Below are positions 9,001 through 12,000 of a stretch of DNA of 64,000 bases, one piece after another. Location: assembly GCF_054482595.1 (NCBI RefSeq), contig NZ_CM137008.1. One strand, 5' to 3'. How positions within the stretch are numbered: the stretch's first letter is position 1; each line of letters begins with the position of its first letter. A program made the position numbers.

Positions 9001-12000
9001 ATTGGAGTGTTCAGCCTTAAGATCAGGATTTCCGTATGTGACACTGCCGCCCGCAGATGTCTGCATAAAAAGCTGGGAGAGTGTGGGAAATACGTAGCCT
9101 TGCGCGAACGCAGCGCGTAACTCCAGGTTATCGAAACCTGAATAGCGCAGGCTTGTAGATGTTACCATTTCGTGATCACTCGCAGACTCTCTGGCAAGAG
9201 AGGTATCGCTTATAATGCCTGCGGTATATGATACTCCGTCACCACGCGTCAACTTTGAAGAAAGCCAGTATTGGCGAACTCCCATTGTCCATGTCCAGTG
9301 ATCGGCGAATTGCCAGTCATTTTGTGCGAATAGTGAGACTGTACTTTGCTCTGACTCATAATAGGAGCGAGTTCGTGTTTCCTTATTAATGAAGCCGGTC
9401 AGAGATTTGCTTGAGGTCATGCCACCGGACCTTTGGTTGACCCTGTCTTGTTTGTACTGTGCACCGGTAACAAGTTCATTATTAGCAGGCAGCGAAAAGT
9501 GACTCTGCAATGTGACCGCCTGAGTGTATTGCTTATCATGGGTGTCAGTCTTGTTATGAACGGTCAGAGCCTGAATCATCGGACTGGGAACAGGCTGTGT
9601 CGTTTTTACTTCGTTGGCAAATTGGCGCTGGATGGTCTGCTCATACGCGTCGAAATGAATTTTTTTAGATAGTCACCGTCCACGTCTGTGTCATAGAATA
9701 CCCCAACTTTCTCTCGTTCAAGTTTAGGTATTTTGACACTAAATGCCTCATAACTTCCGTCTGGATCCTCATAGTAAGTTTGTGTCGCGAGTCTGTAGCG
9801 ATCAAGCGAGAGGCCAAAACGATGGTTTCCGGAGTTATAACCCAACCATACACCCTGACTATTGTTACGATAGTTGGTATTCGGCAGACGTCCATCCGGC
9901 GTATCACGATTGCCCTGATCAGAATAACTACCGTTGATGCGATAATCAAATCCACCGATGCTCCCCTGGACCGCGATTGATTCTTCCCAGCCTGCTGTTG
10001 CGGAATTATAAACAGCTTTCACAACTCCAGATGCAAGTTTGTTACCTCCCTTTTTGGTGATGAAGTTAACAATACCGCCAATTGCCTGTGAACCGTACAG
10101 TACGGAATATGGACCTTTCACTATCTCAACACGCTCCAGCGCAGACTCATCTATCAACAGTCCCACACTATAATTATCTCCGGCGCGCTGATAAGTTACC
10201 TCCTGACCATCAATGAGAATTAAAACACGGGAGGATGCTTCGCCACGAATGCGGATTTGTTTACGGCCTGCCAAGGAGTTGTCTGTTATCTCTACTCCGG
10301 GGATGTCCTGCAAATTATCGGCTATGGAGGCATTGGTGGAGTTCTGCAATGTTTGTTGGTCAATAACCTGTATAGTCGCCGGGCTTTCCCAAAGGTTGCT
10401 TGCCGAACGATTCGTGGTCACGACGAGCGTCTCTTCGTTGCTGATTTTTGTTTCTGAAGAAGTTGCGGTTGCAGTAGAAACTATCCCAGAAATGCATAAT
10501 GACAGAGTGGAAAGGATATAAATTCGACAAGGTATATTATATAACATTTCATCCCTCATTAATACAAAGTACAAATGATTGCTGTAATGATAATTATTTT
10601 CATTTATGCTCTCATATATCTATAATTATTGTCATCTTCATAAATTGTAAATATCAAACATTTTTGACCTTAATCATGTTTTTTGATAGATATTTTACGA
10701 CTGAACATATCCGTCGTTTCCTCTGACTCGTGTCAGTCGGTCTCTGGTTGTATCCACGGACCGCACTCTTGACATAAGAGTGCGGTCCGTGGAAAACGGA
10801 GTTGAAAAAATGGTGTCTGAAAGAAGGTACCATCATTGTGATGACAAATACTTTGGCGTGGATAATGTAATTAATTGCTGAAATTGACCGTATATGCGGT
10901 AAGACTCATATCAGTATCAGGTCCGGTTAATTGCTGATACTAATATAAACTTTTTACAAAAGGATGAATGCAGAAGGTTACTCTAATGGCCAGAGTGATG
11001 ACAATGATGGTCAGACGTTGACCTGCAGAAACTGCATTTTAATTGGTCTATAAAGTCTGCAAGAGGAATCAGGGTCAGATCAGTGAGTCTTATCGCGGCC
11101 CGAAGCTATGACTGAAAGAAGGCTGGATACAGAATTGCAACAATTTGGCAATGTCAGAACACAGAAGCTTTGCAAGCAGGTGAAAGGTTATGTCTAGCAA
11201 AAGGAGTATATCAGAATATATCTACTGATGTACAAAACACAACAATAGCTTCATGATATATAAATACGTGATGACGAGTGGTACTCCGCATGGTTATTTA
11301 ACTTCTCAGCACCACTAATGATCCTGAGCAACTTCGTATTTGGGCCATTACCATGGAGTAGAAAGCTGTGTCTGAGAATGCAGAATTTGAGAAAAGAATT
11401 CGCTTTCTTGGAGAGCTTCTGAAAATGGCACGCTAACAACGTTTTGTTAAAAAATGTGAATCACTTGCCGGGGCTGCATTTTCTATTCGAGGAGAATGTT
11501 GACGTAGATATTACAGAAATCTCAGCGCATCAGGATAAACTGCTACCTTAGGTCAACCACCAAAAGAAAATACAATACGTCCAGTTTGTATGCCTTTAAT
11601 AACACATCTTCTAAATGTTGAAGAATTATCCCGCCTGCTGAAGAACGTTGCTCTGAGTGTGATAAACCTTTTTATTCTTGATGATGTCAGCGAGAAGATG
11701 GAATATATCCCCGACTGGGTCGTGGTTACCCGGTTAAACATCTGGTGGCGCTAATAAATCTGGCAAGTCACATTCTGTTGAATGCTGTGACAGTGCCTTA
11801 CCGAGAGAGCGAAATTGTGGTGTTCTAGTGCATAGTCGCCACCATTCCGGATAATTCTATTACGTTGTTTTACAAGTTCTTTTACAGCGCAGATCTGTCG
11901 CTGACGTTGAATCAATAGCCTGGATTTCAGAACACAATGCCCGTTTGCTGGTTGTTCCGGCAGTAGCATTAATTCATTATCTGAATGAAATGTGTCAATC

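What the first reader, a model, noticed from the sequence alone, without database searches (positions are those of the whole stretch)
10754..10792. Perfect 17-bp palindrome in the receptor upstream region
CCACGGACCGCACTCTT-GACAT-AAGAGTGCGGTCCGTGG is too long and perfect to be chance. There is no T-run, so it is more likely a protein-binding dyad or a REP-like structural element than an intrinsic terminator.
Basis: seen in the sequence. Interest (0 to 1): 0.3.

Follow-up and report, generated by a model that had tools for sequence, protein, structure and literature searches.

The report
Hairpin relic in dead transposase gene
The perfect palindrome is real and single-copy, sits at the broken edge of a decayed insertion-sequence gene (E. 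coli K-12 pseudogene yoeH) next to a haem-receptor gene, and published RNA maps show it marks the 3' end of an abundant orphan transcript; it is not a receptor control site or a REP repeat.

Summary
The palindrome is confirmed and is one base longer per arm than reported: 18-nt perfect arms (10753-10770 / 10776-10793) around the loop GACAT. It is far beyond chance. The window is E. coli chromosome, in the IS "graveyard" between the haem receptor gene hma/yoeA and cobUST.

The element is single-copy. It occurs only in E. coli, in about 2,750 of 5,426 complete genomes, so it is not REP-like and not an IS end.

It reads in frame as the start of the surviving C-terminal 54 codons of an IS110-family transposase. 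This remnant is the K-12 pseudogene yoeH.

It lies outside the conserved, Fur-box-containing receptor promoter. It is also polymorphic: a C>T mismatch in 435 genomes, a 40-bp deletion in one genome, and an IS3-family insertion in about 540.

Published K-12 Term-seq and RNAtag-seq data place strong RNA 3' ends on the + strand at window 10788/10789 and 10799. These lie downstream of a reported constitutive sigma-70 promoter at 10597-10626.

Best reading: a mutational relic whose RNA hairpin (-37 kcal/mol) fixes the 3' end of an orphan ~160-nt transcript. Low novelty.

The parts
10753..10793 (.). Perfect palindrome: arms 10753-10770 and 10776-10793, loop GACAT at 10771-10775.
10760..10921 (+). 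C-terminal 54 codons of an IS110-family transposase, with two stop codons. This is the K-12 pseudogene yoeH. The palindrome reads P R T A L L T * E C G P W against A R A A A L L T K E P G P W in an intact relative.
   Evidence: tblastn with L007:2023-3042: 48% identity, E 1e-7 (window) to 3e-9 (region). Codon view. K-12 annotation. Plasmid tblastn. Exhaustive phmmer search.
10889..11175 (+). Remnant of the 3' non-coding end of the same IS110-family element, about 68% identical to L007 3001-3296. It includes a conserved hairpin at 10908-10946 spanning the stop codon.
11172..11750 (+). IS66-family remnant (end of tnpB plus start of tnpC), about 71% identical to plasmid copies. This is K-12 yoeG.
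10597..10626 (+). Sigma-70 promoter-like site TTTTCA-18-TATAAT, reported as the constitutive, H-NS-bound 'yoeH' promoter in K-12. It would start the + strand RNA near 10633.
   Evidence: Shimada 2014, PMC3946193
10788..10799 (+). Positions matching the RNA 3' ends mapped in K-12 MG1655: 2068394 and 2068393 (= 10788/10789, inside the right arm) and 2068383/2068382 (= 10799/10800, 6-7 nt past the stem).
   Evidence: PMC7815308 suppl. file 1; PMC10687069 suppl. data 2 and 3; coordinate mapping
10583..10601 (.). Fur-box-like site (15 of 19 matches to GATAATGATAATCATTATC, judged by eye). It lies in the only upstream block shared with Salmonella and other relatives of the receptor, and it overlaps the -35 of the + strand promoter.
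   Evidence: sequence; conserved block 10585-10617; the consensus is recalled from memory
8401..10547 (-). TonB-dependent receptor gene (yoeA homologue), frameshifted in this window. The name hma and the haem function rest on my recollection that yoeA corresponds to the UPEC receptor Hma, plus the haem-uptake operon context of the Salmonella homologue.
10756..10799 (.). ACGG direct repeats (10756-10759 and 10796-10799) that bound the 40-bp deletion removing the palindrome in strain BCE049.
10618..10752 (.). Orphan segment between the conserved receptor promoter block and the IS110 remnant, with no homology found. It forms most of the body of the + strand RNA.

Best explanation
SHOWN. The window is E. 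coli chromosome. The palindrome is a unique, E. coli-specific sequence. It sits at the 5'-truncated edge of a decayed IS110-family transposase gene fragment (K-12 pseudogene yoeH), in a stack of IS debris between the receptor gene and cobU. That stack contains IS110-family, IS66-family and 'IS4-family' remnants and a cbiP remnant. The loop, the right arm and the inner left arm are in-frame remnants of the transposase codons. Relatives at about 50% identity are not palindromic at this position.

SHOWN in the literature for K-12. A constitutive sigma-70 promoter fires rightwards from about 10633. Abundant RNA 3' ends map in and just after the hairpin on that strand.

INFERRED, mechanism. The + strand transcript folds into the 18-bp hairpin. 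Because there is no U-tract, most 3' ends probably arise after transcription. In this reading, 3'-5' exonucleases stop a few nucleotides past the stem (window 10799), and nibbling or RNase III-type cleavage yields the ends inside the right arm (10788/10789). A smaller part may be hairpin-dependent termination. The result is a stable orphan RNA of about 155-165 nt. The hairpin is a by-product of junk DNA and not a control element of the receptor.

INFERRED, origin. A weak quasi-palindrome is inherent in the codons A-R-A-A-L-L-T-K-E-P-G-P-W (Leu-Leu against Lys-Glu, Arg against Pro, and so on). It was probably made perfect by templated (hairpin or template-switch) mutation at or near the deletion junction that truncated the IS. 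That would explain the 3-base Pro>Cys codon change and the missing Ala codon.
For: Identity and context: 100% match to E. coli chromosomes with annotation; K-12 annotation of yoeH, yoeG and yoeA.

Single copy. The genome-contig scan gave one unrelated Lentibacillus terminator only.

IS110 remnant.

IS66 remnant.

The receptor promoter block ends at about 10617.

Polymorphism:
- C>T at 10764 in 435 of about 2,206 intact loci.
- A 40-bp deletion between ACGG repeats in 1 genome.
- An IS3-family end abutting 10760 in about 540 genomes.

RNA evidence:
- Term-seq 'orphan' 3' end at 2068394(-), listed in all three growth conditions, with mean read counts of 122,542 and 280,326 in the two passages read. 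For comparison, the yeeX primary 3' end has 205,828.
- TRS 3' termini at 2068383, 2068393 and 2068382, with this hairpin as the reported fold at -36.6 kcal/mol and a maximum U-tract of 2.
- Promoter TTTTCA-18-TATAAT.
- Sense and antisense yoeH RNAs that are sensitive to RNase III.
- Hairpin energy.
Against: - No experiment was done on this strain. All RNA data are from K-12, although the 441 bases around the site match K-12-type genomes at 99.8-100%.
- The transcription start site was not verified.
- Termination versus processing is not resolved. The dominant Term-seq end lies inside the stem, which is unusual for an exonuclease stop and could reflect ligation bias.
- The origin model cannot be tested, because no relative closer than about 50% amino-acid identity exists in the libraries searched.
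- The C>T variant keeps a G-U pair in the + strand RNA. That is weakly compatible with selection on the RNA structure, which the pure-relic view does not predict.
- The RNA is abundant, which junk status does not predict.
Confidence: 0.65

Rival explanations
1. The hairpin is a genuine U-tract-independent transcription terminator or insulator. It would stop RNA polymerase coming from the constitutive rightward promoter, so that transcription does not run through the IS debris into cobUST.
For: Very stable GC-rich stem. A 3' end maps 6-7 nt after the stem, with TRS signal 0.975 in one dataset. The 3' end has high read counts.
Against: There is no U-tract: the maximum U run is 2. Read-through 3' ends exist further downstream at K-12 2068076 and 2067813. 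The strongest Term-seq end lies inside the right arm, not downstream of it.
Confidence: 0.25
2. The hairpin is the selected 3' stem-loop of a functional small RNA. This RNA would be about 160 nt, divergent from the receptor gene, and driven by a promoter that overlaps the Fur box. It would have been exapted from IS debris.
For: The orphan 3' end is abundant in three growth conditions. A promoter is reported and overlaps the Fur-box-like site. The only common variant, C>T, preserves pairing as G-U in the + strand RNA. The whole RNA folds better than shuffled versions, z = -6.2.
Against: There is no Rfam match. The locus is absent from about half of E. coli genomes and from all other species searched. 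It is lost by IS3- and IS2-mediated rearrangements in hundreds of genomes. No covariation is available to test. The RNA body is an orphan, AT-rich spacer.
Confidence: 0.1
3. The palindrome is a protein-binding operator (dyad) that regulates the receptor gene or the divergent promoter.
For: Perfect dyad symmetry; position about 205 bp upstream of the receptor gene.
Against: It lies outside the promoter block conserved with receptor relatives in Salmonella and a metagenomic close relative. It is made of transposase-derived codons. It is single-copy, so no regulon is evident. It is disrupted naturally by a mismatch, a deletion and an IS insertion. An 18-bp arm with a 5-bp spacer is much longer than typical operators (general knowledge).
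Confidence: 0.04
4. It is a member of a dispersed repeat family (REP/BIME, MITE or IS terminal repeat).
For: Only the general look of a GC-rich extragenic palindrome in an IS-rich region.
Against: There is one locus per genome in 5,426 E. coli genomes. The '2 places' reported are the palindrome matching itself on the other strand. No other copy exists in the window even with 3 mismatches. There is no related hit in 100,044 species representatives. It lies inside a transposase reading frame, not at an element end.
Confidence: 0.01

Closest known systems
Exonuclease-blocking or 3'-end-defining RNA stem-loops (as formed by REP sequences and other stable 3' hairpins in E. coli mRNAs)
   Same: A very stable GC-rich hairpin without a U-tract, with RNA 3' ends accumulating at or a few nucleotides past the stem.
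   Different: It is single-copy, has no REP consensus, and derives from a transposase pseudogene. Dependence on PNPase, RNase II or RNase III was not tested.
Canonical intrinsic (Rho-independent) terminators
   Same: A GC-rich stem-loop with an associated RNA 3' end.
   Different: There is no U-tract. The main 3' end lies inside the descending arm. Downstream read-through ends are present.
IS110-family elements (ISEc66-like; RNA-guided DEDD transposases, NCBIfam NF033542)
   Same: The palindrome is built from the codons that follow the Transposase_20 domain. The collinear 3' non-coding end is also retained.
   Different: Only the last 54 codons survive, at about 50% identity and with stop codons. 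Intact relatives are not palindromic at this position. The palindrome is not an IS end or an IS target site.
Quasipalindrome template-switch mutagenesis and palindrome-stimulated deletion (Ripley-type models; recalled from memory, not tested here)
   Same: The 3-base codon replacement and one-codon loss both increase arm complementarity. The natural 40-bp deletion lies between 4-bp repeats at the base of the hairpin.

Membership tests
REP/BIME repeats | Tens to hundreds of copies per enterobacterial genome | tested here: not met
   One locus per genome. No family found in 100,044 species representatives.
REP/BIME repeats | Imperfect palindrome matching the REP consensus | tested here: not met
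   This is a perfect 18-bp palindrome of unrelated sequence that reads as transposase codons. The REP consensus itself is recalled from memory.
Intrinsic terminator | GC-rich stem-loop | tested here: met
   -37.4 kcal/mol, z = -8.8.
Intrinsic terminator | U-rich tract immediately 3' of the stem | tested here: not met
   AAAACGGAGUUG follows the stem. The scan did not list the site. The published table gives a maximum U-tract of 2.
Intrinsic terminator | Factor-independent release of RNA polymerase at the site | not testable with these tools
   Needs in vitro transcription. Only steady-state 3' ends are known.
IS terminal inverted repeat / MITE | Located at the ends of a mobile element, with a partner repeat and target-site duplication, in multiple copies | tested here: not met
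   It lies inside the transposase reading frame, about 130 nt before its stop codon, and is single-copy.
IS110-family transposase pseudogene (context of the palindrome) | Sequence homology to IS110-family transposases, collinear with the element's 3' end | tested here: met
   tblastn: 48% identity over 54 aa, E 1e-7 to 3e-9. The reference protein matches NF033542, PF01548 and PF02371. The 3' end is about 68% identical at the DNA level.
IS110-family transposase pseudogene (context of the palindrome) | Direct profile-HMM match of the fragment itself | tested here: not met
   The 76-aa conceptual peptide hits no Pfam or NCBIfam model. It covers only the tail beyond the Transposase_20 domain, so this failure is expected.
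Transcription-factor operator of the receptor gene | Lies in the regulatory region that travels with the gene in relatives | tested here: not met
   Upstream homology to the closest relatives ends at 10606-10617.
Transcription-factor operator of the receptor gene | Bound by a regulator | not testable with these tools
   No binding-site library or ChIP data were searched. The only binding information is H-NS in the general spacer region.
3'-end-defining / exonuclease-blocking stem-loop | Stable hairpin with RNA 3' ends mapped at or just past it in vivo | tested here: met
   Literature data for the identical K-12 sequence: positions 2068394, 2068393 and 2068383/2 on the minus strand.
3'-end-defining / exonuclease-blocking stem-loop | 3' ends depend on the stem and on PNPase, RNase II or RNase III | not testable with these tools
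   Needs mutants. The only hint is that the yoeH sense/antisense pair is RNase III-sensitive.

The most novel reading that the evidence does not exclude
The hairpin is the functional 3' stem-loop of an uncharacterised, abundant small RNA of about 160 nt. This RNA would be transcribed divergently from the Fur-controlled haem-receptor promoter and assembled entirely from IS debris: a young, E. coli-specific regulatory RNA whose stem was perfected by templated mutation and then retained.
Probability: 0.1. Interest if true: 0.45.

Novelty: new member of a known kind. Interest (0 to 1): 0.2.

Why it matters
It matters little for receptor biology, because the dyad should not be read as a regulatory site of the haem receptor.

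It is a clean example of two general points:
- Decaying insertion sequences can leave very stable hairpins that shape the transcriptome. Here the result is an abundant 'orphan' RNA 3' end seen in two independent K-12 datasets that had no explanation attached.
- Perfect palindromes can arise by mutation within former coding sequence.

It also corrects the local annotation. The sequence next to the palindrome is IS110-family followed by IS66-family debris, in addition to the 'IS4 family' fragment that the annotation pipeline names.

Tried and rejected
- **Rfam.** Searches at gathering and permissive thresholds found nothing meaningful at the site; only chance miRNA and CRISPR-DR hits with E > 0.3.
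- **'IS4' reading of the flank.** Pfam and NCBIfam scans of ORF fragments gave nothing. DNA comparison with plasmids then showed IS110-family plus IS66-family origin.
- **Recovering the ancestral state of the arms.** The word-indexed protein search found no candidate. Plasmid tblastn and the exhaustive 1.84-billion-protein phmmer search gave nothing closer than about 50% identity. The origin of the palindrome therefore stays inferred.
- **Breakpoint inside the left arm as a recombination site.** In about 540 genomes the left flank changes at 10760. This turned out to be the end of an IS3-family element plus a secondary rearrangement. A second common breakpoint at 10944 is an IS2 end.
- **Longer imperfect inverted duplication.** Inspection of the flanks shows complementarity stops at 18 bp.
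- **Upstream regions of receptor homologues.** Loci from Salmonella and a metagenomic homologue at 87% identity share only the promoter / Fur-box block.
- **Coordinates of iRAP#6850 and the antisense start site.** These could not be obtained: there are no supplements for PMC6847712, and PMC5535762 and PMC3939876 are not held.
- **Ofloxacin-evolution deletion.** A deletion in yoeH is reported, but without coordinates.

Full report
**1. Observation**

The palindrome exists and is slightly longer than reported. The arms are 18 nt and perfect: 10753-10770 (TCCACGGACCGCACTCTT) and 10776-10793, with the loop GACAT between them.
- It is the longest perfect hairpin in the window; the next best has 13-nt arms.
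- Forty first-order Markov simulations of the window never exceeded 12 nt.
- The arm sequence has no other match in the window even with 3 mismatches.
- As RNA it folds at -37.4 kcal/mol on the + strand and -36.5 on the - strand, z about -9.
- Neither strand has a T-run after the stem.

**2. Where it is**

The window is E. coli chromosome, covering the cobUST-ldtA-asnV-nac-cbl region in the reverse of the K-12 orientation. It matches complete genomes at 100%.

The palindrome lies in a 1.6-kb gene-poor stretch. On one side is a TonB-dependent receptor gene on the minus strand (8401-10547, frameshifted here). This is the K-12 yoeA homologue. From memory, this is the UPEC haem receptor Hma; its Salmonella homologue sits in a haem-uptake operon. 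On the other side is cobU. In K-12 the palindrome is at 2068390-2068428 and overlaps the start of the annotated pseudogene yoeH.

**3. Copy number and distribution**

It is single-copy. In the collection of 5,426 complete E. coli genomes:
- About 2,750-2,760 genomes carry at least part of the site, always at this locus. The 'two places per genome' in the output are the palindrome matching itself on the other strand.
- About 2,206 genomes have the whole site. Of these, 435 carry C>T at window 10764. That is a G.T mismatch in DNA and a G-U pair in the + strand RNA.
- One genome (BCE049) lacks exactly 40 bp between the ACGG repeats at 10756-10759 and 10796-10799. This is the classic outcome of slippage across a hairpin.
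- About 540 genomes match only from 10760 rightwards.

A scan of one genome from each of 100,044 species for the core CCGCACTCTT-N5-AAGAGTGCGG found only an unrelated Lentibacillus terminator. The REP, MITE and IS-end readings are therefore rejected.

**4. The breakpoint inside the left arm**

In strain 6883 the end of an IS3-family element (...GGGTAGGATCA) abuts CCGCACTCTT. The DNA to the left is unrelated, a truncated phosphotriesterase-like gene. Strain 268.2 is a deleted derivative of that arrangement.

A second common breakpoint, at 10944, is the end of an IS2. The listing shows a dozen different left boundaries across E. coli. The region is an IS-driven rearrangement hot spot, and the palindrome is not a dedicated recombination site.

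**5. What the palindrome is made of**

The annotation pipeline names only an 'IS4 family' fragment at 11727-11915 and a cbiP remnant. Comparison with plasmids showed more:
- Window 11172-11732 is about 71% identical to an IS66-family element (end of tnpB plus start of tnpC).
- Window 10889-11175 is about 68% identical to the 3' non-coding end of an IS110-family element.

tblastn with that element's transposase aligns its last 54 residues to window 10760-10921 at 48% identity, E 1e-7 to 3e-9. The reference protein matches NCBIfam NF033542 and Pfam PF01548 plus PF02371. The aligned interval is exactly K-12 yoeH, which one paper also describes as a non-functional transposase.

In frame, the palindrome reads P R T A L L T * E C G P W K T E L K K. 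The intact protein reads A R A A A L L T K E P G P W I T E L K K. So the loop, the right arm and at least the inner left arm are former transposase codons. Homology stops at 10753-10760, which is at the left edge of the palindrome. The intact relatives are not palindromic at this position.

**6. Relation to the receptor promoter**

The receptor's closest non-E. coli relatives are a metagenomic homologue at 87% identity and a Salmonella homologue at 79%. They share upstream sequence only as far as window 10606-10617. That block contains a Fur-box-like site at 10583-10601, with 15 of 19 matches judged by eye against a consensus recalled from memory.

The palindrome lies about 140 nt beyond that block, separated by an orphan segment (10618-10752). 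Together with the natural mismatch, deletion and IS insertion, this makes a receptor operator very unlikely.

**7. What it does: published K-12 data**

The K-12 sequence is identical around the site.
- Shimada et al. 2014 list a constitutive sigma-70 promoter, TTTTCA-18-TATAAT, for yoeH, with H-NS binding. The same site is at window + strand 10597-10626.
- Adams et al. 2021 (Term-seq) list an 'orphan' 3' end at 2068394 on the minus strand in all three growth conditions. Mean read counts in the two passages read are 122,542 and 280,326, comparable to the yeeX primary 3' end at 205,828. This position corresponds to window 10788, the 13th base of the right arm.
- The TRS study lists 3' termini at 2068393, 2068383 and 2068382, corresponding to window 10789 and 10799/10800. 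It shows this hairpin as the fold (-36.6 kcal/mol) with a maximum U-tract of 2, and it remarks that yoeH may undergo premature termination or processing.
- Further 3' ends downstream, at 2068076 and 2067813, show read-through.
- Magan et al. 2019 report that the yoeH RNA pairs with an antisense RNA. The antisense RNA is removed by RNase III and ended by a Rho-dependent iRAP. I could not obtain its coordinates.

**8. Mechanism I commit to**

A transcript from about 10633 folds into the hairpin, and the hairpin fixes its 3' end, giving a stable RNA of about 155-165 nt.

Three observations point mainly to post-transcriptional trimming or cleavage, which I put at about 55%: there is no U-tract, the ends are heterogeneous (some inside the stem, some 6-7 nt past it), and read-through occurs. 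Hairpin-dependent termination is the main rival at about 25-30%. This step is inferred, not shown.

**9. Origin (inferred)**

The codon series has built-in partial self-complementarity: CTC TT against AA GAG, CGG against CCG, ACC against GGT, and CCA against TGG. Relative to the homologues, this copy shows a three-base Pro>Cys codon change (CCN to TGC, the complement of the Ala codon GCA opposite it) and lacks one Ala codon. Both changes perfect the pairing.

That is the signature expected of templated, hairpin-mediated mutation near the deletion junction. Without a closer relative the direction of the events cannot be established.

**10. Verdict**

This is a real, non-random, single-copy hairpin that is a relic of IS decay. 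It acts at the RNA level as a 3'-end-defining stem-loop for an orphan transcript. It is not a REP element, not an IS end, not a canonical terminator, and very probably not a regulator site for the receptor. Novelty is low: it is an uncharacterised instance of a known kind. The one reading that would raise interest is that the abundant hairpin-ended RNA is a functional, young small RNA, which I put at about 10%.

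Noticed in passing
window 10889-11175 (hairpin at 10908-10946): Remnant of the 3' non-coding end of an IS110-family element, about 68% identical to an ISEc66-like copy on plasmid CP057768. 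It has a conserved hairpin spanning the transposase stop codon. In IS110/IS1111 elements such non-coding ends encode the guide (bridge/seek) RNA; that point is from memory and was not tested.
   Followed up: partly
window 11172-11750: This stretch is an IS66-family remnant (tnpB end plus TnpC N-terminus, for example LLSTTNDPEQLR... and VSEKMEYIP). RefSeq annotation names only an 'IS4 family transposase' fragment at 11727-11915, so the local annotation is incomplete.
   Followed up: partly
window 10583-10626: A Fur-box-like site (15/19) overlaps the -35 of the rightward TTTTCA-18-TATAAT promoter and lies in the receptor promoter block. The orphan RNA and the receptor gene may therefore be co-regulated by iron.
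   Followed up: no
window 10500-12250 compared across 5,426 E. coli genomes: The sequence upstream of cobU is a rearrangement hot spot with at least 12 different left boundaries. These include an IS3-family end at 10760, an IS2 end at 10944, and pdu/EutP-type genes directly next to cobU in some strains.
   Followed up: partly
window 15648-15723, 18057-18132, 19881-19956, 35041-35116: Four identical tRNA-Asn(GTT) genes, as in the K-12 asnT/U/V/W region. A 2,685-aa ORF (26745-34802, minus strand) lies at the position where my recollection of the K-12 gene order places the adhesin gene yeeJ.
   Followed up: no
window 40623-40674, 46264-46439, 50019-50328: Rfam hits to DicF and to the sok antitoxin RNA, plus a cluster of four tRNA genes (Met, Lys, Thr, Gly). 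These suggest a lambdoid prophage downstream of tRNA-Ser (36108-36197).
   Followed up: no
window about 10420 (minus strand); K-12 2068762 (+): Adams et al. list an RNA 3' end internal to yoeA, about 127 nt into the receptor gene. It lies in the 10421-10440 region, where the scan listed a terminator-like site on the opposite (+) strand. This may indicate premature termination or attenuation in the receptor leader.
   Followed up: no
K-12 yoeH (= window 10763-10921): An ofloxacin adaptive-evolution study (PMC12363166) reports a deletion in yoeH and increased tolerance of a yoeH knockout. No coordinates are given, so it is unknown whether the palindrome was the deletion site.
   Followed up: partly
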